A DNA stretch of 25,625 nucleotides from a virus (IMGVR_UViG_2531839476_000020), one strand, 5' to 3'; numbered from the stretch's first letter, positions 16,343 through 24,607 are shown. Translations and numbers: made by a program. The notes: generated from the sequence alone by a model not told the origin.

Positions 16343-16552
16343 ATGGGGCTGGATTGCGTGCCTATATCAACCTACTGCCGCGACGCGGGAGAAACGGTTG
16401 ATGCCGTTAACAAACGGATACAAAGAGGAATATGGAAAGAAGGGGTTCATGTATTAAAAGTCGACGGAGTTAAAGAACGCTGGGTCGACTTAATAGAGGT
16501 TTCAAAATGGGCAAGAAAGAACAAGGATTATTATCTCTGCCAAGAGGAGTAA
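16343..16552 (+). CDS. excisionase-like protein
   Basis: 69-aa ORF immediately upstream of, and overlapping, the integrase gene, as in xis-int pairs. Confidence 0.55.
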   Translation: MGLDCVPISTYCRDAGETVDAVNKRIQRGIWKEGVHVLKVDGVKERWVDLIEVSKWARKNKDYYLCQEE

Positions 16553-17685
16553 CTATTCGTAAGCATAAAACTGCTTCAACACTAGTTATCACTTTCACAT
16601 ATAAAGGGGTTCTTTGCAGGGAGCCCCTGTCTCGGCTTGAGGCAAATACACGTGGTATTAAATATGCTGAGCGCCTGCTAGGGGAGATACAAAATCAGAT
16701 CGCCAGCGGAACGTTTGAATATGCGAAATATTTCCCCAGTTCCAAAAAACTGGAGTTATTCGGTGTAGTAAAGAAAACCAAAAATATTAAGTCCTATCTT
16801 GATGAATACCTGAAAATTTGCATGAACCGCAATCTGTCGCCGTCAACCATTGGCGGTTACGAAAAATGTCTATCAGCACTATCAGAACTACATAAACTAC
16901 ATGTAACAGAATTGACGCCTGCGGTACTAAAAAATTGGATAGCCAGCCGAAAAACTAAGCTGAAAACAATCAGGAATAACCTGTCATTTCTGCGCAGCGC
17001 CATTGATGAGGCTGTAACTGATGGCCTGTTGACTATTAACCCGGTAACTCTTGTCAGCGCCAGCCGGTATCACGTGGTCGACAGTAAACCGAACGCCGAC
17101 GATTACGAAGTTGATCCGTTTGCGCCTGCGGAAACCAGTGCCATATATCAGCACTGCAAGTATCAGGAATGGCAGAATCTGTTCCGCTTCGCCTTCAATA
17201 CAGGGCTACGCAGCTCTGAGCTATGCGCATTACGTTGGACCGATATCGACTTTATAGGTAATACAGCGCACATACAGGCGGCCAGTGTCGTAGGGGTACT
17301 TAAAGGCACCAAGACAAAAGCCGGTACCCGTAAGGTGGAGCTGAACAGTGAGGCGCTGGCGGCCCTGCAGGCGCAGAAGCAATACACCTTTATGAAAAGT
17401 GAGTTCATATTCAGCGATCCGAAAACGGGAGATCCCTGGACGAACGCCGACGCTATCCGTAAAAAAGCATGGGTGCCGACCCTGAAAAAAGCTGGTGTGC
17501 GCTACCGTAACCCGTACCAGACGCGCCACACATTCGCCACCAGACACATTAGCCAGGGTGTAAACCTTTTCTGGCTTGCCGGGCAGATGGGGCATAAGGG
17601 GCCGGAAATGCTGTTCCGCAATTACGGTAAATACCTGGCTGAATACGACGGGAAAACCGCAATGGAATCTGGAATGAAGAAGTGA
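16507..17685 (+). CDS. tyrosine site-specific recombinase (lambdoid prophage integrase)
   Basis: 392 aa; the C-terminal region carries the conserved residues of the tyrosine recombinase catalytic set (Arg in FNTGLRSSEL, His-x-x-Arg in TRHTFATRH, His in MGHKG, Tyr in LFRNYGKYL); N-terminal arm-type DNA-binding region. Confidence 0.9.
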   Translation: MGKKEQGLLSLPRGVTIRKHKTASTLVITFTYKGVLCREPLSRLEANTRGIKYAERLLGEIQNQIASGTFEYAKYFPSSKKLELFGVVKKTKNIKSYLDEYLKICMNRNLSPSTIGGYEKCLSALSELHKLHVTELTPAVLKNWIASRKTKLKTIRNNLSFLRSAIDEAVTDGLLTINPVTLVSASRYHVVDSKPNADDYEVDPFAPAETSAIYQHCKYQEWQNLFRFAFNTGLRSSELCALRWTDIDFIGNTAHIQAASVVGVLKGTKTKAGTRKVELNSEALAALQAQKQYTFMKSEFIFSDPKTGDPWTNADAIRKKAWVPTLKKAGVRYRNPYQTRHTFATRHISQGVNLFWLAGQMGHKGPEMLFRNYGKYLAEYDGKTAMESGMKK

Positions 17686-17697
17686 TTTGAAGAAAAA

Positions 17698-17721
17698 ACC
17701 CGGCAAATGCCGGGTCTTTTT
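17698..17721. terminator. bidirectional intrinsic terminator between convergent int and cargo genes
   Basis: CCCGGC-AAAT-GCCGGG hairpin flanked by AAAAAA upstream and TCTTTTT downstream. Confidence 0.65.
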
Positions 17722-17726
17722 GATGG

Positions 17727-18494
17727 TTATTCTGTCGCGCCACCTATCGAAACATAATCATGAAATTGATCGTCAATGAGTCGGTCCTTACAGATAACAT
17801 GTACAATGTGACGACAACAGTTTTCATCATCATACGCACGACCCCAGCGAACAATCTCATCTACAGACAGATCATTCGCACTCCATGGCAAAGTACCTGA
17901 AACGCCACGCGCACCTGGACCAAGTATGTCCATAAATTTCTTCGTGCGTGAATTGTAGATCCGTACCTCGGCAATTCGAATGATGCTACTAGCCCAAAGA
18001 GCACCACCGGCAATACTTTGAATGTTATCGCAGATGAGAAACTCATGCTTTCGCGCAAGCATTTTATAGATCTCACGCGCCAAACCTGCTGATTGGAAAT
18101 CCTGTGCGATAACAGCGCTTTTCACTTGCTTTCCGGTCATCATCTGACCGTTCTCTTCGATAAAATTAAAGTCGTTGAACTGTATACGACCTATTCTTAT
18201 CGTTTTGTTATCGTCTACCATATCAAGACCCAAGAGGGTATTGACCAGATCCTGCATTGGAACCTTCGAATCAAGAAGGTCACTGCCATAGTCTAAAAAA
18301 AAGTCGTCGGTGGAACATCCCAGTTGATACACATCCAAGTAGTACTGAAACTCACCAGAACTGACAATGTACTCATCAGCCCTCAGTAAGCCAGCCTCGG
18401 CAGTGAAAAAATAGAATGACTCAATAAGACGTTTTTCGCCAAATGGCGTAATGTTCAAGTCCTTGTTATATGAAGGTATTAACGCAGGAGCCAT
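17727..18494 (-). CDS. hypothetical protein (255 aa), second gene of an int-to-att cargo operon
   Basis: Long ORF convergent with int, 11 nt downstream of the 113-aa gene; no recognisable catalytic motif. Confidence 0.6.
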   Translation of the reverse strand: MAPALIPSYNKDLNITPFGEKRLIESFYFFTAEAGLLRADEYIVSSGEFQYYLDVYQLGCSTDDFFLDYGSDLLDSKVPMQDLVNTLLGLDMVDDNKTIRIGRIQFNDFNFIEENGQMMTGKQVKSAVIAQDFQSAGLAREIYKMLARKHEFLICDNIQSIAGGALWASSIIRIAEVRIYNSRTKKFMDILGPGARGVSGTLPWSANDLSVDEIVRWGRAYDDENCCRHIVHVICKDRLIDDQFHDYVSIGGATE

Positions 18495-18505
18495 TCAGCA
18501 ACCTT

Positions 18506-18847
18506 TTAATGGTAGTTAATTTCCCTGTAGTTCTTCTGCATGTATAGAGCAATTGCCGCTTCAATTTTCTTCAGCAGATTACTGCTTACATACTGAGGAT
18601 ACTGATCTGCTGGCTTCACAACATAGCGCAATTTTTCTTTGTTCATGGCGATCTCAGCGAACGGGATCACGTCACCGTCACGAACCTCATTGTTCAATGT
18701 CACAATAAACAGCTGACGTGCCGGGGAGACACGATCACTCAGTCTTCTCACGAAGAACTCGTTTGCTGTGTTTGAGTCAACAAAAGAACTGACGAGTTGA
18801 GTCCGACGCTCAATCGTCTGTATCGATCTTCTCGCTACTGTTCTCAT
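18506..18847 (-). CDS. hypothetical protein (113 aa), first gene of an int-to-att cargo operon
   Basis: RBS GAGGAG 6 nt upstream of the ATG; preceded by a structured leader. Confidence 0.55.
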   Translation of the reverse strand: MRTVARRSIQTIERRTQLVSSFVDSNTANEFFVRRLSDRVSPARQLFIVTLNNEVRDGDVIPFAEIAMNKEKLRYVVKPADQYPQYVSSNLLKKIEAAIALYMQKNYREINYH

Positions 18848-18886
18848 GCTAGTCTCCTCAACACTTCACTGGCTGTGCAGTGAAGG

Positions 18887-18924
18887 TACAAAAAGCCACT
18901 GATGATAACAGCGTCATCAGTGGC
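18887..18924 (-). terminator. terminator-like hairpin inside the leader of the 113/255-aa operon (possible attenuator)
   Basis: 11-bp stem GCCACTGATGA/TCATCAGTGGC followed on the minus strand by TTTTTG; a second 8-bp hairpin CTTCACTG/CAGTGAAG (18864-18885) lies between it and the RBS. Confidence 0.45.
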
Positions 18925-19176
18925 CCTTGATGGTGATAACCGCAGTTACCTAAATAGTATGATATTACCTTACGGGTAATTCTTCAACGATTGCTCTGAA
19001 TTGAATAGTCTTGAAGTGCTATGAACAGCACAAAACAGCGCTAATCACCGCCCCAGTGGCGCCTAAACACTTCAAAATGTTGGACAGAATCAGGACGTTA
19101 GAGGTACTACAATATGCACGTAAAATGCACGTGAGGTATTTTAAATTAGAAAAATCATTAATATTCAATTGGTTAA

Positions 19177-19217
19177 GAATTTTTCGGATACGGGTTCAAC
19201 TCCCGCCAGCTCCACCA
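19177..19217 (+). other. ssrA: 3' fragment of ssrA (tmRNA) ending in CCA; att core shared by the prophage right end and the P4-type island left end
   Basis: GAATTTTTCGGATACGGGTTCAACTCCCGCCAGCTCCACCA matches my recollection of the E. coli tmRNA 3' end (T-arm, acceptor stem, CCA). No matching 5' acceptor strand or tmRNA body lies upstream. Confidence 0.7.
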
Positions 19218-19382
19218 CTTTTTAGTTGTTTGAAGTTCAATGAAGTCTACTAAGCCCACACAGCACAAGCTCTGCGGGCTTTTTTACGTCTATTGTCGTC
19301 CAGTGAGAATTGCTGAGAACTACGAGTTATGGCACCCTGAATGGGACCCACTAAGAAGGGTCCAAAAACCGAGGGTCCCAAA

Positions 19383-20612
19383 ATGGCAAAAATCGCTAAG
19401 AAGCTCACTGACACTGAAATCAAAAGCACCAAGCCAGCCGATAAAGAAATCAACTTGTTTGACGGTGATGGTCTGATTCTACGAATCGCTCCTTTGGCGA
19501 AAGGAGGCAAGAAAAATTGGTATTTCAGGTATGCAGTACCAGTGAGCAAGAAAAGAACCAAAATGAGCCTTGGGACATATCCTCACCTTACCCTTGCAAG
19601 AGCCAGAGCCTTACGTGATGAATATCTCTCCTTTCTGGCAAATGGTGTTGATCCCCAAATCCATAACAACGATAAGGCGAAGGCATTAAAGAGTGCTACT
19701 GAGCACACTCTCCAAGCCGTAGCGCGGAAATGGTTAGATGAGAAGGTAAAGACATCAGGTATCTCACAAGACCATGCAGCAGACATCTGGCGCAGCTTAG
19801 AGAGAAATGTCTTTCCCGGTCTGGGTAATGTCCCTATCAATGAGATCCGACCTAAGCTCTTAAAACAACACCTTGATCCTATTGAGCAACGAGGCGTATT
19901 GGAAACTCTACGCCGTATCATTTCACGTCTGAATGAAATCTTCCGGTGGGCAGCTACTGAAGAACTTATTGAGTTCAACCCGGCTGACAACCTTGGTCAA
20001 AGATTCAGTAAACCAAAAAAGCAAAATATGCCTGCCCTTCCCCCAAGCGAATTGCCAAGGTTTATGGAATCTTTGACGAATGCGTCAATCCGGTTGGAAA
20101 CACGTATGCTAATTGAATGGCAATTGTTGACATGGGTTCGTCCGGGTGAAGCCGTTCGCGCAAGGTGGTCTGATATTGATACAACCAACAGCATTTGGAA
20201 CATTCCTGCTGATTTCATGAAAATGAAAAAGCTTCACAAAGTTCCTTTGAGTAAAGAAGCTTTGCGCATCCTTGAATTAATGAAATCAATAAGTGGGCAT
20301 AGAGAATGGGTTTTCCCCAGCATAAAAGCGCCTCTTAATCATATGCATGAACAAACAGCCAACGCAGCTATCATCCGAATGGGGTTCGGAGGCGAGCTTG
20401 TAGCTCACGGTATGCGTTCTATTGCACGAACAGCGGCAGAGGAGTCTGGTAAATTCAGAGCTGAAGTTCTTGAGGCAGCGCTTGCCCACTCGAAAAAAGA
20501 TGAAATTATCGCAGCATACAATCGTGCAGAATATCTGATAGAGCGACAGAGTTTGATGCAATGGTGGAGTGATTACGTTCAAGCTCAAAGATCAAATGCT
20601 CTGGTAGCCTAA
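19383..20612 (+). CDS. P4-type tyrosine integrase (IntA-like)
   Basis: Start at MAKIAKKLTDTEIKSTKPADKEINLFDGDGLILRI, the typical P4-family integrase N-terminus; C-terminal AHGMRSIARTAAEESG and catalytic Tyr region; lies directly 3' of the ssrA fragment. Confidence 0.9.
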   Translation: MAKIAKKLTDTEIKSTKPADKEINLFDGDGLILRIAPLAKGGKKNWYFRYAVPVSKKRTKMSLGTYPHLTLARARALRDEYLSFLANGVDPQIHNNDKAKALKSATEHTLQAVARKWLDEKVKTSGISQDHAADIWRSLERNVFPGLGNVPINEIRPKLLKQHLDPIEQRGVLETLRRIISRLNEIFRWAATEELIEFNPADNLGQRFSKPKKQNMPALPPSELPRFMESLTNASIRLETRMLIEWQLLTWVRPGEAVRARWSDIDTTNSIWNIPADFMKMKKLHKVPLSKEALRILELMKSISGHREWVFPSIKAPLNHMHEQTANAAIIRMGFGGELVAHGMRSIARTAAEESGKFRAEVLEAALAHSKKDEIIAAYNRAEYLIERQSLMQWWSDYVQAQRSNALVA

Positions 20613-21138: not shown

Positions 21139-22887
21139 TTATGGTAGCATCATTGATACATAATCCACACCAATCCTTGAGCTATACTGAGACGCTATAG
21201 CCTGATATCTTTCTGCATAACCAGTTCTCAGTTGAGATTTAAGTTTGAGTCGGACAGGAACATTTTGCACGTTGCCATCCATATTACTTAAAAACACGGC
21301 AGAAATAATATTTTTTTCTTCGCCATCAACTGTTGTTCCATGATTCAACACCACCATATAATCAACAACAGGAAGCGTTTTATCCCCTTCGAAAATAGAG
21401 AGATATTTTCTTTGATTTTTATGCATTACATATATATATTTCGAATGTTCAGCAAATGGCAATGCTTTACTCTGACTGGCGTTAAAAAGCTCCAGAACTT
21501 TAATGAGCCTGTGCGGACTTAATCTTACATGGTGAGGGTCGTTACCCTGAGTAGGAACCAAATCACATGCCGCAGATACACATAAATACCATTTGTTCGA
21601 CTCTGTATCAAAGAAAATAGTGCCAGTAGAAATATGACCATCTTCAAAATTCTTTGAAGACAAATTCATATTTAAAGCATGATACATTTCGTGATAAGTA
21701 TCATTATTTGATGGCAGATCCATTTTTGAAGAGCAATATTGGAGCAATGCAGCAACTCCGCTGTTAGCGTATTCATTTGAATAGCTATCAAAAACACTTT
21801 TGATAAATTCATCCAGCGTATTATTATTTTTAAGTCTTTGATAAAGCTCTTCTGATAAATTACCAAATACAAAGTCAATATTTCTACATCTAATATCAGG
21901 CGAGTCTGATTTTAATATCTCATTTAACCACGCAGCTTGACCGTAATGATCGTTAGCCAAATGATTTACAAAAGATAAAGCCTCAGCTTCGATTGCATTC
22001 TGAATTTCAGATTTTATTAACTGATAATAAGATGGTTTCCATTCAATGAGAGAATCATTGAGAGTTTGCCAAATCCTATCTCCATCGTTTTCATGATCAT
22101 CTTGAACCTTATGAAATAGGGAGACAAAGATATTACCACATTGAATCCATTTTACTCCGCTTTCATCACCCCGAATGACATTGCCAGATGTGTTGCTAGA
22201 AATAATTGCATTTCTAGACACAGCATATTCTGCAATCATTTTTGCAATGAAGTTTTTATCCTTTTGTTCCTCCAACACAGCATCATCATGTATTAATCTT
22301 TTAATTCTTCTACAAGGCTTACTGTCTTTAATATAGGCTATTGTTTCATCTCTTGTGAGAGCTTTATTACCATTATCATTTAAGTTCGGTAATACAACGT
22401 CTTCCCAATAACTTTGGACATCTTCATTATCGTAGTCAATGATCAAGCTGTTGATATCCAGAGCACCTTTGAGAGTCGATGATATCTGCATCCAAACCGT
22501 TTCTAAATTCTCTCTAGTATATATTACAATCATATTTAAATGATCGGAGTCTTTCAAATCTTGTAATAGTTTAAGTGTTTTATCAGGTGCATTATTATCA
22601 AGATGATAATCTACAATAATAAGATCTGATTTTCTAATCCGATCCACATCGAAATTAACAGAACCATTGTCAACATCACAAATCATATTTTTAGATTGAA
22701 AAAAGCTCTCAAGAGTAGCGGCTCGTTTAGATGAGTCAATTTTGTTGTAGTCTAAATCAACTTCGTTATTCAACGCCCTGATTGATTCAGAATACGTCAG
22801 AAAATCGTCATCAATCATGACAACGGAACGAATTGCATTTTCGCAGAAAGTTTTCTGGACAAGAGAATTATAATTTGCCACTGTCAT
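21139..22887 (-). CDS. receiver (REC) domain protein with an uncharacterised ~450-aa C-terminal domain; candidate effector of a two-component-like module
   Basis: N-terminus has REC hallmarks: acidic pair VVMIDDD, putative phospho-acceptor Asp in DLIIVDYHLD, conserved Thr in NMIVIYT. The rest has no motif I can name. Start assigned to the second ATG (22887), preceded by TGGAG and abutting the kinase stop (TAATATG). Confidence 0.75.
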   Translation of the reverse strand: MTVANYNSLVQKTFCENAIRSVVMIDDDFLTYSESIRALNNEVDLDYNKIDSSKRAATLESFFQSKNMICDVDNGSVNFDVDRIRKSDLIIVDYHLDNNAPDKTLKLLQDLKDSDHLNMIVIYTRENLETVWMQISSTLKGALDINSLIIDYDNEDVQSYWEDVVLPNLNDNGNKALTRDETIAYIKDSKPCRRIKRLIHDDAVLEEQKDKNFIAKMIAEYAVSRNAIISSNTSGNVIRGDESGVKWIQCGNIFVSLFHKVQDDHENDGDRIWQTLNDSLIEWKPSYYQLIKSEIQNAIEAEALSFVNHLANDHYGQAAWLNEILKSDSPDIRCRNIDFVFGNLSEELYQRLKNNNTLDEFIKSVFDSYSNEYANSGVAALLQYCSSKMDLPSNNDTYHEMYHALNMNLSSKNFEDGHISTGTIFFDTESNKWYLCVSAACDLVPTQGNDPHHVRLSPHRLIKVLELFNASQSKALPFAEHSKYIYVMHKNQRKYLSIFEGDKTLPVVDYMVVLNHGTTVDGEEKNIISAVFLSNMDGNVQNVPVRLKLKSQLRTGYAERYQAIASQYSSRIGVDYVSMMLP

Positions 22888-22888
22888 A

Positions 22889-24607
22889 TTAGAACTCCAC
22901 TCCATTGAACTGGATCACAAAATTAGCGCCATCTTTTATTAAATAGTTATCGCCTTCATCAGGTTCTGAATACCATATTTTATGATGTGCAACAGCAAGG
23001 TTTTCTCGACATAGATACAGACCTACCCCATGTCCATTTGCTCTTTTGCTATAAAATAGTTCAAATAGTCGCGGGATATCATCGGTATCAATTGCCGGAC
23101 CAGAATTTGCTATGATAACCAAAGAATTCACAAAACCAATCTTTATGAGCCTATTATTTGACAGACTGACCCAATACATTGCATTGTTGATAATATTAGT
23201 AAAAACAGGATAGATCCTTGATGGTATATCTGTTATTGCGATTTGCTTAAACTCTTCACTAAATTCAATAGTTATTCGTTGCCGTTCGAAACGCTCCCCA
23301 AAGAACTTCAGGACATAATCCATGATATTTTTTCCAGTTATTCTCTGCCTGGATTGATAACCTGATATTTTCAAAGGTGATAAGAAACGTATTTGTTGAG
23401 TAAGCGATCTGTGAGCATTTAACGCCAATGAAAAACCAGGGTGTTCTTTTACAGAAGTAGGAAGAGAGTTTAGTCCTCTGGTTACCATAGAATCCATTTC
23501 TTCAAGTTCATGAGATATTATCTCAACACTAATACCTAACTGTGCAAGCGCGTTTAAACTTTTAGCTTTTTCTTCAAAATATGAGCGTTCTTCTTCAGAT
23601 AATGAGAATGCTGAATCTAAGTTTATACCTTCAAATAATCTATCGAGACCTTTTATTATTGATTGATATTTGAAAGTTAGGGTATCAACTGACTCAACAT
23701 ATAAACTATCGAGCAAATTAAACACATTTTCAATTTGTGAATCATTATCTATTGAATCAACAACTGATATAGTTTTAGCATAATAATCACTTCGATCAAC
23801 CTTTATTTCATCGGCCCATTTTTTTAAAAGAGAATGTATCTTCTCCTCTATCGTGTTATTAAACTTAGTTAGTTTAGAATTAATAATACCTTGATTTTTT
23901 TCAAGGTGATTTTTCGCTGACAATGAAGGCTCAAGTTTATTTAATTCAGAATCAAGTTTATTAATTGCTAACTTCATTTGTAGAATATACGCAGAGAACT
24001 CATTAAATTTATCTCTGTAGTCTCTATATTTCTCTTCATACATTCCAAGTTTTGGAGGTTTGATAGGCGTTTTAATTTCACTGCGCAACGCATCTAAGTT
24101 TGTAAGATCACTGTCTATAATTTTAAGATAGTTTAAATCTAACGAACCATCAGTTTTATCAAGCTTAGTTTTCAGCCTTTTAACAGCCTCCAAGGAAGCA
24201 TCAAGAACTGGTGTCTGATTCTTCAAAGCTTCTGAAAAACTTTTTTGTGTTGATTTTCGAGCTTGTTGTTGAGCAGATTTTCTTAACTCTTTTTCACGCT
24301 TAACTTGTTCTAAAAGCTCTTTACGGTCATCAGAACGTGAACCAAAAAATCTATCAGCAAGTTCAGTTAACAAATTAGATATAATAGTTTTCAGTTCTCT
24401 TGCAGCCTGGTTTCTTATGAATCCCTCTCTCCCCGACTTATCTTTCAGCTCTTTATTACTGGATTGAGTAATTCCAATATAACCAAAAATCCTTCTATTA
24501 GACCAATAATATCGCCCTGCATTCCATGAACGTCTTTCTTCTATCTGGAAGAAATCATTATCTACTCGACCATAAGGTAATACTCTCAAGCTATCCCTAA
24601 AAATCAT
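22889..24607 (-). CDS. cytoplasmic histidine-kinase-like protein (HisKA H-box + HATPase_c), probably 5'-truncated by IS3
   Basis: H-box ISVEIISHELEEMDS; N-box IYPVFTNIINNAMYW; G1 IIANSGPAIDTDDIPRLFELFYSK; G2 GHGVGLYLCRENL. No transmembrane segment and a long coiled-coil middle. The frame stays open for 41 codons upstream of the ATG at 24607, up to the IS3 terminus at 24729. Confidence 0.75.
   Translation of the reverse strand: MIFRDSLRVLPYGRVDNDFFQIEERRSWNAGRYYWSNRRIFGYIGITQSSNKELKDKSGREGFIRNQAARELKTIISNLLTELADRFFGSRSDDRKELLEQVKREKELRKSAQQQARKSTQKSFSEALKNQTPVLDASLEAVKRLKTKLDKTDGSLDLNYLKIIDSDLTNLDALRSEIKTPIKPPKLGMYEEKYRDYRDKFNEFSAYILQMKLAINKLDSELNKLEPSLSAKNHLEKNQGIINSKLTKFNNTIEEKIHSLLKKWADEIKVDRSDYYAKTISVVDSIDNDSQIENVFNLLDSLYVESVDTLTFKYQSIIKGLDRLFEGINLDSAFSLSEEERSYFEEKAKSLNALAQLGISVEIISHELEEMDSMVTRGLNSLPTSVKEHPGFSLALNAHRSLTQQIRFLSPLKISGYQSRQRITGKNIMDYVLKFFGERFERQRITIEFSEEFKQIAITDIPSRIYPVFTNIINNAMYWVSLSNNRLIKIGFVNSLVIIANSGPAIDTDDIPRLFELFYSKRANGHGVGLYLCRENLAVAHHKIWYSEPDEGDNYLIKDGANFVIQFNGVEF

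What the first reader, a model, noticed from the sequence alone, without database searches (positions are those of the whole stretch)
17727..18847. Uncharacterised two-gene cargo cassette between the prophage integrase and its att site
A 113-aa and a 255-aa protein form a tight operon (11-nt gap) convergent with int, in the int-to-att position where prophages commonly carry morons not needed for the phage cycle. Neither protein has a domain I recognise. Small-then-large gene pairs here are often toxin-antitoxin, abortive-infection or superinfection-exclusion modules.
Basis: inference. Interest (0 to 1): 0.7.

Follow-up and report, generated by a model that had tools for sequence, protein, structure and literature searches.

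The report
Mobile prophage cassette encoding acetyltransferase-like pair
The two genes are a real, self-contained 1.5-kb accessory cassette (own promoter, structured leader, terminator) that hops between temperate phages and phage-plasmids and encodes a very divergent GNAT-type acyltransferase plus an obligate small partner; what it does is still unknown.

Summary
Observation confirmed: two co-oriented ORFs (113 aa, 18506-18847; 255 aa, 17727-18494; minus strand, 11-nt gap) fill the interval between a prophage integrase and the ssrA-type att core. Both are under strong purifying selection.

The "cargo" reading is well supported. The same integrase occurs in 106 of 5426 complete E. coli genomes, but only 10 carry this pair; elsewhere the slot holds a DUF4760 gene or is empty. 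The pair moves as a ~1.55-kb unit. It sits in more than 10 unrelated places: tail and baseplate modules, next to Q or Ant, stand-alone in a chromosome, and beside parA in SSU5-like phage-plasmids. The small gene directly precedes the large one in every locus with enough upstream DNA.

The enterobacterial cassettes carry a conserved promoter and a three-hairpin leader holding an intrinsic terminator. The leader shows covariation and has no Rfam match.

Function is inferred only. Best guess: an effector (GNAT) plus regulator pair serving addiction, exclusion or defence. It is not a TacAT/AtaRT-type system: there is no RHH antitoxin and the GNAT is acidic.

The parts
17692..17715 (-). Intrinsic terminator ending the cassette. 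It is shared, as a bidirectional hairpin, with the convergent int gene: ACCCGGC-AAAT-GCCGGGT, followed on the minus strand by TTTTTTC.
   Evidence: Sequence. Plus-strand version listed. Minus-strand hairpin plus T-run found. An equivalent hairpin plus T-run lies 15-55 nt after the large gene in 19 of 22 cassettes from other contexts.
17727..18494 (-). Large gene, 255 aa: a divergent GNAT-fold (acyl-CoA N-acyltransferase-like) protein. It is acidic (pI 4.8). The Q/R-x-x-G-x-A motif is at residues 133-138 (QSAGLA). Residues invariant across the extended family are P3, K11, Q123, Y143, D156, Q159, W167 and W204.
18295..18302 (-). A8/T8 homopolymer inside the large gene (codons F65-F66-L67). It is a frameshift hot spot: the A7 allele splits the gene in the PhiR12 phages and in one IMG/VR contig.
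   Evidence: Pairwise alignment with PhiR12_1. Split CDSs (L001, L041).
18506..18847 (-). Small gene, 113 aa: the obligate partner. It is basic (pI 9.8) and alpha+beta (one helix, five strands, long C-terminal helix). No DNA-binding or other sequence domain was found.
18854..18859 (-). Shine-Dalgarno sequence GAGGAG, 6 nt upstream of the ATG of the small gene.
   Evidence: Sequence. A GGAGG-type motif sits at the same place in all cassettes.
18864..18950 (-). Structured 5' leader. P1 hairpin is at 18935-18950. P2 is at 18895-18924, an 11-bp stem followed by a U5 run at 18890-18894, which is an intrinsic-terminator shape. P3 hairpin is at 18864-18885.
   Evidence: Inverted repeats I4 and I7. 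RNAfold -40 kcal/mol, z = -3.4. A terminator-type hairpin plus T5-8 ends 41-49 nt before the ATG in 27 of 32 distinct enterobacterial leaders. Covariance model R1 and pair counts: 95.8% of cells paired, 8 pairs with compensatory change, 0 of 500 shuffles as good. No Rfam family.
18959..18987 (-). Sigma-70-type promoter-like site, TTGAAG-17 nt-TATCAT, belonging to the cassette.
   Evidence: Hexamers with the same spacing and position are visible by eye in cassettes from unrelated insertion contexts. Function not tested.
18988..19184 (-). Upstream non-coding part of the cassette, between the promoter and the att core. It is poorly conserved between clades. The mobile unit in other phages includes about 230-290 nt upstream of the promoter.
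   Evidence: Unit boundaries from L005 vs L008 and L013 vs L044/L045. Alignment.
19185..19217 (+). att core: a duplicated 3' end of ssrA (tmRNA), the right junction of the prophage. It is context for the cassette, not part of it.
   Evidence: Match to ssrA of CP-1639 (H9). Rfam tmRNA 3' end. The PhiR12_1 genome ends here.
16507..17685 (+). Prophage integrase (context), convergent with the cassette.
   Evidence: Pfam Arm-DNA-bind_2 plus Phage_integrase; phrog_1.

Best explanation
The interval is one autonomous, horizontally mobile accessory transcription unit, a phage 'moron' of about 1.5 kb. It consists of a promoter, a structured leader, a small gene translationally coupled to a large gene, and an intrinsic terminator.

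The large product is a highly divergent GNAT-fold, probably acyl-CoA-dependent, acyltransferase. The small basic product is its obligate partner.

The most likely working model, which is inferred and not shown, is an effector-regulator pair. The GNAT modifies a cellular or phage target, probably a protein or small molecule rather than tRNA. The small protein binds and restrains or directs it. The module would benefit the carrying element through addiction or stabilisation, superinfection exclusion, or abortive-type defence.

In the enterobacterial clade, transcripts from the cassette's own promoter mostly stop at the leader terminator P2, giving a short leader RNA of roughly 65-70 nt. The genes would then be expressed only by read-through, or by terminator-resistant late transcription. 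In the excised phage that late transcription would be expected to enter the cassette across attP in the same orientation.
For: Shown:
- The pair is a discrete unit. Phages with otherwise unrelated flanks share only 1539-1593 bp around it.
- It occurs in many insertion contexts; grouping by the two nearest flanking genes on each side gave 46 flank combinations among 57 loci. These include integrase-att, between major tail protein and chaperones, baseplate hub/wedge, next to tape measure, and next to Q, Ant or an endonuclease. It also sits alone in the Pseudescherichia chromosome and between the lysis genes and parA in SSU5-type phage-plasmids, with matches in 375 PLSDB plasmids.
- The slot is variable: 10 of 106 E. 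coli genomes with this integrase carry the pair.
- Order and coupling are strict (9-23-nt gap or overlap) in every locus with enough upstream DNA, down to about 20-30% identity.
- Purifying selection acts on both genes.
- The large protein has a GNAT fold with motif A and weak profile links to Pfam GNATs.
- The promoter-like site and leader are conserved with compensatory changes. A downstream terminator is present in 19 of 22 cassettes.

Consistent with the GNAT being the dispensable or dangerous component:
- The large gene is frameshifted in two independent lineages (the E. coli A7 allele and Xenorhabdus indica). The small gene is intact everywhere.
- Neighbours are typical of addiction or defence loci: parA in SSU5, MqsRA and an integrase in L061, DUF4238 in L065.
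Against: - No experiment or homology links either protein to toxicity, immunity or any target.
- There are no hits in PADLOC, Pfam or NCBIfam.
- The GNAT is uniformly acidic (pI 4.2-5.9). To my knowledge, known tRNA-acetylating GNAT toxins are basic.
- The small partner has no RHH or HTH domain.
- Motif A lacks its glycine in some distant members, so CoA binding may not be universal.
- The structural neighbours include the C-terminal domain of M. tuberculosis ICL2 (Rv1916). From my own knowledge it acts as a non-catalytic acyl-CoA-sensing GNAT domain.
- The pair's wide presence in SSU5-like phage-plasmids at one position could mean a life-cycle function there.
- The leader terminator is absent from the Photorhabdus/Xenorhabdus, Buttiauxella and SSU5 branches, so it is not essential to the module.
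- The promoter is only a consensus match, and the scan found fewer such sites than in shuffles.
Confidence: 0.4

Rival explanations
1. It is a non-toxic two-subunit acyltransferase used for lysogenic conversion or counter-defence. The small protein would be a substrate-binding or specificity subunit, a degenerate half-GNAT like the inactive domain of tandem-GNAT enzymes. The complex would acylate a host or phage protein or metabolite to the element's advantage, with no addiction or suicide component.
For: - Co-inheritance and translational coupling are strict.
- The acidic GNAT suits basic protein or amine substrates.
- Lysogens carrying the frameshifted allele are viable, as expected for a non-essential, non-toxic gene.
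Against: - Foldseek finds no significant match for the small model, and hhalign finds no relation between small and large, so the half-GNAT idea rests on one method.
- No target is indicated.
- The patchy, selfish-looking distribution and parA-adjacent position fit addiction or defence modules at least as well.
Confidence: 0.28
2. The polarity is reversed: the small basic protein is the harmful or active component, and the downstream GNAT neutralises it by binding or acetylation. This would resemble the E. coli TopAI(YjhX)-YjhQ pair or enzyme-type (type VII) antitoxins.
For: - The gene order, with the small gene first and the GNAT second, matches yjhX-yjhQ (my recollection of the literature, not checked here).
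- The small protein is basic (median pI 9.3) and the GNAT acidic, the opposite of the usual pattern of basic toxin and acidic antitoxin.
- K11 and the N-terminus of the large protein, and the N-terminal helix of the small one, are strongly conserved.
Against: - Natural alleles have a frameshifted GNAT gene and an intact small gene. They occur in viable phages and lysogens (PhiR12_1-5, L041) and in Xenorhabdus indica.
- No case was seen of a lost small gene with an intact large gene. That asymmetry is the opposite of what this model predicts.
- No homology to TopAI/YjhQ was tested or found.
Confidence: 0.12
3. It has a virion-assembly or lytic-cycle role, for example acetylation of tail proteins or help with assembly, because many copies lie inside tail or baseplate operons in the same orientation as the structural genes.
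For: - Copies sit between the major tail protein and chaperones, within baseplate genes, and after the tape measure.
- They are co-oriented with the flanking structural genes.
- In SSU5 the pair directly follows the lysis cassette.
Against: - The same cassette (98% identical) sits in two unrelated structural modules (L005 vs L008), at int-att, next to Q or Ant, and alone in a bacterial chromosome.
- It is absent from most phages with the same integrase.
- It brings its own promoter and terminator.
- There is no similarity to structural proteins.
- The free PhiR12 phages carry a frameshifted large gene yet were deposited as complete phage genomes with E. coli K-12 or C named as host.
Confidence: 0.06

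Closest known systems
Phage morons (autonomous promoter-gene-terminator insertions in lambdoid phages, as defined for HK97/HK022 by Hendrix and colleagues)
   Same: - It is an extra transcription unit that is present or absent between the same flanking genes in related phages.
- It sits at classical moron sites: the tail operon, next to Q, and int-att.
- It has its own promoter-like site and intrinsic terminator.
- Its G+C is lower than that of the neighbouring prophage (0.44-0.45 vs 0.50-0.52).
   Different: - It has two obligately linked genes rather than one.
- It carries a conserved structured leader with a terminator between promoter and genes.
- It is also found outside phages, in a chromosome and in phage-plasmids.
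GNAT/RHH type II toxin-antitoxin systems (TacAT, AtaRT, ItaRT, KacAT)
   Same: - A small upstream gene is followed by a GNAT-fold gene, and the module is carried on mobile elements.
   Different: - No Pfam GNAT hit and no DUF1778/RHH antitoxin.
- The protein is 255 aa, with an N-terminal beta extension and a beta6-beta7 insertion.
- It is acidic.
- These toxins are not its closest neighbours.
- Toxicity is unknown.
N-terminal and protein acetyltransferases of the GNAT superfamily (Naa40/NatD, RimJ/RimL/RimI, Hat1) and Rv0802c
   Different: - Sequence identity is 5-13%.
- There are no sequence-level matches to any PDB chain.
- The family-specific invariant residues (P3, K11, D156, Q159, W167, W204) are not the catalytic residues of those enzymes.
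Type III toxin-antitoxin loci (ToxIN, AbiQ) and leader-RNA immunity systems (P4 CI RNA, P1 c4)
   Same: A promoter is followed by a short structured RNA, an intrinsic terminator and then the protein genes. Most transcripts would therefore end as a small RNA, and read-through would set protein levels.
   Different: - There are no tandem RNA repeats and no endoribonuclease.
- There is no evidence that the leader RNA acts in trans.
- The leader is missing in other branches of the family.

Membership tests
Phage moron | Present in some phages and absent between the same flanking genes in close relatives | tested here: met
   The cassette is in 10 of 106 E. coli genomes with this integrase. The same slot holds a DUF4760 gene (O26:H11 11368, phi467) or nothing (DX6). 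L005 and L008 share only the 1539-bp unit.
Phage moron | Own promoter and own terminator flanking the inserted gene(s) | tested here: inconclusive
   A consensus promoter TTGAAG-17-TATCAT lies at 18987-18959 and is conserved in position across contexts. A downstream hairpin plus T-run is present in 19 of 22 cassettes. These are sequence-level only; there are no transcript data.
Phage moron | Not required for the lytic cycle | not testable with these tools
   Indirect only: the pair is absent from most relatives, and the PhiR12 phage genomes carry a frameshifted large gene.
GNAT (GCN5-related N-acetyltransferase) superfamily | GNAT alpha/beta fold (beta1-alpha1-alpha2-beta2-4-alpha3-beta5-alpha4-beta6-7) | tested here: met
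GNAT (GCN5-related N-acetyltransferase) superfamily | Motif A pyrophosphate-binding loop Q/R-x-x-G-x-G/A at beta4-alpha3 | tested here: met
   QSAGLA at residues 133-138, with consensus RGAGLA. G137 and L138 are invariant in the close family. The glycine is lost in some distant members. The small protein has no such loop.
GNAT (GCN5-related N-acetyltransferase) superfamily | Match to a curated GNAT sequence model (Pfam Acetyltransf_*) | tested here: not met
   No Pfam or NCBIfam hit at E <= 1. The only link is indirect: the family profile weakly hits proteins (E 4e-5 to 2e-4) whose Pfam Acetyltransf_1 region coincides with motif A.
GNAT (GCN5-related N-acetyltransferase) superfamily | Acyl-CoA binding and acyl transfer | not testable with these tools
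   Needs biochemistry.
GNAT/RHH type II toxin-antitoxin (TacAT/AtaRT/KacAT) | Antitoxin with ribbon-helix-helix DUF1778 domain | tested here: not met
GNAT/RHH type II toxin-antitoxin (TacAT/AtaRT/KacAT) | Toxin of about 160-175 aa recognisable as Acetyltransf_1/_7, basic, tRNA-binding | tested here: not met
   The protein is 255 aa with no Pfam hit. Its pI is 4.8, and the family range is 4.2-5.9. That these toxins are basic is from my own knowledge.
GNAT/RHH type II toxin-antitoxin (TacAT/AtaRT/KacAT) | Toxicity neutralised by the upstream partner | not testable with these tools
   Indirect only: the large gene is frameshifted in two lineages and the small gene never is.
Known anti-phage defence systems (PADLOC-DB v2) | Match to a model of a known or candidate defence protein | tested here: not met
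   No family matched at E <= 1 for either protein.
Type III toxin-antitoxin (ToxIN-like) | Tandem repeats of antitoxin RNA upstream of a terminator and an endoribonuclease toxin gene | tested here: not met
   A terminator lies between promoter and genes, but the leader has no tandem repeats and the downstream proteins are not ToxN/AbiQ-like.
Rfam RNA families (for the leader) | Covariance-model match | tested here: not met
   Only the tmRNA 3' end and an IsrM fragment were found, both outside the leader.

The most novel reading that the evidence does not exclude
The pair may be a previously unrecognised class of two-protein addiction or defence module, spread through temperate phages and SSU5-type phage-plasmids of Gammaproteobacteria. 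An acidic, atypical GNAT acyltransferase would be the effector. A basic partner with a truncated GNAT-like fold would be its inhibitor or adaptor. In the enterobacterial branch, output would be gated by a new terminator-containing leader RNA that may itself be a regulatory small RNA.
Probability: 0.3. Interest if true: 0.7.

Novelty: new variant of a known kind. Interest (0 to 1): 0.52.

Why it matters
- If the pair is an addiction or defence module, it adds a GNAT-based system whose partner is unlike the known RHH antitoxins and whose target is probably not tRNA.
- It would also assign a function to a gene pair found next to parA in SSU5 and matched in hundreds of plasmid records from Klebsiella, Enterobacter, E. 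coli and Salmonella, mostly about 100-120 kb.
- Its sharply delimited 1.5-kb unit, found in many phage backgrounds, is a clean natural example for studying how morons move.
- The conserved promoter-terminator leader is an untested regulatory RNA element with no Rfam family.
- If the pair proves to be only a non-toxic modifying enzyme, it is an ordinary accessory gene of modest interest.

Tried and rejected
- Sequence libraries gave nothing for either protein: Pfam, NCBIfam and PADLOC. PDB sequence searches with single-family and extended profiles also gave nothing.
- hhalign of the small against the large family found no relation. The idea that the small gene is a duplicated fragment of the large one has no sequence-level support.
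- A zinc site or catalytic cysteine (C60, C155, C227, H229, invariant in the close family) was rejected. These residues are not conserved in the extended family.
- Foldseek of the small model against PDB found no significant hit. The afdb50 library was unavailable.
- IMG/VR scans with three distant relatives found nothing.
- Literature searches returned nothing relevant. The terms were PhiR12, the phrog ids, WP_000035091, SSU5_031/032, and GNAT combined with prophage defence.
- RNAalifold on a plain MAFFT alignment of the leaders recovered only part of P2, because the hairpins were misaligned. It was replaced by a covariance-model alignment. That alignment is fitted to the model, so it leans towards the structure.
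- My first terminator-finding script was too strict and was replaced.
- A second promoter between P2 and the ATG was considered and rejected by eye: only poor -10 candidates, and almost no leader would remain.
- The Rfam scan of the region found no known riboswitch or leader.

Full report
**1.

The window has two minus-strand ORFs at the stated coordinates: 18506-18847 (113 aa) and 17727-18494 (255 aa), separated by 11 nt. They are convergent with a tyrosine integrase at 16507-17685 (Arm-DNA-bind_2 plus Phage_integrase).

The left 16 kb of the window is a prophage early region. It contains a helicase, a primase, a CI-like repressor, a CII-like regulator and an anti-repressor.

The att site is the duplicated 3' end of ssrA at about 19185-19217. 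The free-phage genomes PhiR12_1..4, which are 99.4% identical here, end inside it. Immediately beyond lies a second, CP4-57-type integrase at 19341-20612. The prophage therefore sits in tandem with another ssrA island.

Both ORFs are real genes:
- They have full-length homologues and PHROG families of unknown function.
- The small gene has dN/dS of 0.08-0.17. The large gene has dN of 0.05-0.35 with saturated synonymous sites.

**2. It is cargo, and more precisely a mobile cassette**

The integrase family is in 106 of 5426 complete E. coli genomes, but the pair is in only 10. In O26:H11 11368, phi467 and about 85 other genomes the same slot holds a DUF4760 gene on the other strand. In strain DX6 the slot is empty.

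Relatives of the pair occur elsewhere in quite different places:
- between the major tail protein and the chaperone/tape-measure genes of siphovirus prophages (Yersinia, Leclercia, Xenorhabdus);
- between baseplate hub and wedge genes of myovirus prophages (Pantoea);
- beside tape-measure genes, and next to Q-like antiterminators, Ant or an endonuclease;
- near integrases of other islands;
- alone between a lactonase gene and a pectinesterase gene in the Pseudescherichia vulneris chromosome.

Two Yersinia prophages with unrelated flanks share only a 1539-bp segment at 97.9% identity. It runs from 366 nt upstream of the small gene to about 99 nt past the large gene. Three other pairs give 1563-1593 bp.

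A more distant branch (29-33% identity) lies between the lysis genes and parA of phage-plasmid SSU5 and matches 375 PLSDB plasmids. These are mostly elements of about 100-120 kb in Klebsiella, Enterobacter, E. coli and Salmonella, plus Acinetobacter plasmids.

In every locus with enough upstream DNA, the small gene lies 9-23 nt upstream of the large one or overlaps it. This covers 56 of the 57 loci analysed (the other is cut at its start), the distant relatives from Shewanella, Aliagarivorans and a metagenomic island, and SSU5.

**3. What the proteins are**

No sequence library recognises either protein.

- The sequence has the GNAT beta4-alpha3 loop Q/R-x-x-G-x-A (QSAGLA, residues 133-138).
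- The family profile weakly hits bona fide Pfam GNATs exactly over that region.
- The protein has an N-terminal beta extension and an insertion before the last strand.
- In an extended alignment down to about 20% identity, the invariant residues are P3, K11, Q123, Y143, D156, Q159, W167 and W204. The cysteines are not conserved, and the motif A glycine is lost in some members.
- The family is small: 56 representatives at E <= 1e-3 among 1.84 billion proteins.
- It is uniformly acidic (pI 4.2-5.9).

*Small protein.* It is basic (median pI 9.3). Its predicted structure is one helix, five strands and a long C-terminal helix.
- Foldseek finds nothing significant, and hhalign sees no relation to the large protein.
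- I therefore treat 'truncated GNAT-like fold' as a lead, not a result.

**4. Regulatory anatomy**

The features below are read in the direction of transcription, on the minus strand.

| Feature | Coordinates | Evidence |
|---|---|---|
| Sigma-70-like site TTGAAG-17-TATCAT | 18987-18959 | |
| Hairpin P1 | 18950-18935 | |
| Hairpin P2, 11 bp | 18924-18895 | |
| U5 run after P2 | 18894-18890 | |
| Hairpin P3 | 18885-18864 | |
| Shine-Dalgarno GAGGAG | 18859-18854 | |
| Bidirectional terminator hairpin | 17698-17715 | |

P2 with its U run has the shape of an intrinsic terminator. The bidirectional hairpin ends both the cassette and int.

Conservation:
- Promoter hexamers appear at the same position and spacing in cassettes from unrelated contexts.
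- A terminator-type hairpin plus T5-8 ends 41-49 nt before the ATG in 27 of 32 distinct enterobacterial leaders. At least nine different stem sequences are used.
- A covariance model built from ten leaders finds the element only upstream of the small gene at E < 5e-4.
- On that model-fitted alignment, 95.8% of cells pair and 8 pairs carry compensatory changes. No shuffle of 500 does as well, and slid controls give 19-56%.
- Rfam has no matching family.
- The Photorhabdus/Xenorhabdus, Buttiauxella and SSU5 branches lack the terminator and have other promoter-proximal palindromes.
- A downstream terminator follows the large gene in 19 of 22 cassettes.

The unit therefore has the full promoter-genes-terminator layout of a moron, plus an unusual attenuator-like leader.

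**5. How it probably works**

Shown: the pair is an autonomous, mobile, selected two-gene unit, and its large product has a GNAT fold.

Inferred: the GNAT is an acyl-CoA-dependent effector, and the small protein is its binding partner. The basis is strict co-inheritance, coupling and complementary charge.

I favour an effector-regulator pair that serves the carrying element through addiction, exclusion or defence (confidence about 0.4). The reasons are:
- its selfish, patchy distribution;
- its neighbours (parA, MqsRA, integrases, DUF4238);
- the asymmetry of decay. The large gene is frameshifted in the E. coli A7 allele, at an A8 tract at 18295-18302, and in Xenorhabdus indica. The small gene is never disrupted.

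The acidic GNAT argues against a tRNA target of the TacT/AtaT kind.

With the leader terminator, transcripts from the cassette promoter should mostly end as an RNA of about 65-70 nt. The genes would be expressed by read-through.

In the excised circular phage, by analogy with lambda's gene order, the cassette should lie downstream of the late operon across attP, in the same orientation. In tail modules it is co-oriented with the structural genes. Terminator-resistant late transcription could therefore switch it on. This step is entirely inferential.

**6. Rivals**

- **Reversed polarity, with a small toxin and a GNAT antitoxin as in TopAI-YjhQ (0.12).** This fits the gene order and the charges, but the frameshifted-GNAT alleles count against it.
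- **A structural or lytic role (0.06).** The many non-structural contexts, the cassette's absence from relatives and its own signals count against this.

**7. Comparison with known systems**

It is a member of the moron class by the presence/absence and layout criteria. Transcription and dispensability were not tested.

The large protein belongs to the GNAT fold class by structure and motif, but it fails every curated GNAT sequence model.

It is not a member of:
- the GNAT/RHH toxin-antitoxin family (no DUF1778 partner, different size and charge);
- any PADLOC system;
- type III toxin-antitoxin loci (no RNA repeats, no endoribonuclease).

No paper in the searchable library mentions these proteins.

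**8. Verdict**

It is sharpened here to a defined 1.5-kb mobile unit encoding a divergent GNAT plus an obligate partner, with a new structured leader.

Function remains open. I rate it a new variant of a known kind, with moderate interest (0.52). The upside case is a new GNAT-based addiction or defence module common in SSU5-type phage-plasmids, at about 0.3 probability.

Noticed in passing
window 19341-20612 (+), with 19185-19217: A second, CP4-57/P4-type integrase (Arm-DNA-bind_3, Phage_int_M, Phage_integrase) starts 124 nt after the ssrA 3' repeat. The prophage is therefore inserted in tandem, upstream of another ssrA-targeting island. The record PhiR12_5 matches the whole 16400-19400 query, including the first 60 nt of this second integrase gene (two integrase features under the match), which hints at imprecise excision.
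   Followed up: partly
window 21139-24607 (-): A low-G+C (0.32-0.35) two-gene module lies in the neighbouring island. It encodes a 588-aa protein with the PF19192 Response_reg_2 receiver domain and an overlapping 572-aa protein with a histidine-kinase-like ATPase C-terminus. Only faint PADLOC hits were found. The same pair follows intA in phi467 and O26:H11 11368. It looks like an uncharacterised candidate defence or signalling pair.
   Followed up: partly
window 18295-18302: An A8/T8 tract in the large gene is shortened to A7 in all five PhiR12 phage genomes and in an independent IMG/VR contig (L041), splitting the gene. This could be a real slippage-prone on/off site, or a recurrent homopolymer sequencing error.
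   Followed up: partly
L068 (Salmonella phage SSU5) 4594-5750; PLSDB hits H76-H125: A distant version of the same pair (SSU5_031 and SSU5_032) lies between the lysis cassette and parA of SSU5, and tblastn finds relatives of the large protein in 375 plasmid records. SSU5_032 is probably annotated 16 codons too short. The conserved MAPSLI start overlaps the end of SSU5_031 by 16 nt.
   Followed up: partly
L021 (Photorhabdus akhurstii) 3940-6723: Two tandem copies of the small-large pair occur, each with its own upstream region.
   Followed up: no
L066 (E. coli O26:H11 11368) 5159-6067; L002 (phi467) 5765-6673: The alternative cargo in the same int-att slot is a 302-aa DUF4760 protein on the opposite strand. 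It is present in most E. coli genomes that carry this integrase family.
   Followed up: no
window 19208-19285 (+): There is a partial Rfam IsrM match (53 bits, far below the gathering score of 376). It covers the terminator-like hairpin just after the ssrA repeat and is probably only the conserved ssrA-downstream terminator.
   Followed up: no
window 752-1729 (+); window 1-4500: A transposase gene (phrog_688) and a high-G+C stretch (0.53-0.61) lie at the left end of the window, next to a 617-aa protein of unknown function (phrog_143). In E110019 an IS3 element also interrupts the early region of the same prophage.
   Followed up: no
window 18935-18950 and equivalents in other loci: Hairpin P1 starts only a few nucleotides after the -10 hexamer and is also a DNA palindrome (GATAAC-N4-GTTATC). 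The Photorhabdus/Xenorhabdus clade has different palindromes at the same place. It could be an operator for an unknown repressor rather than, or as well as, an RNA hairpin. The G.U pair in the window copy slightly favours RNA.
   Followed up: partly
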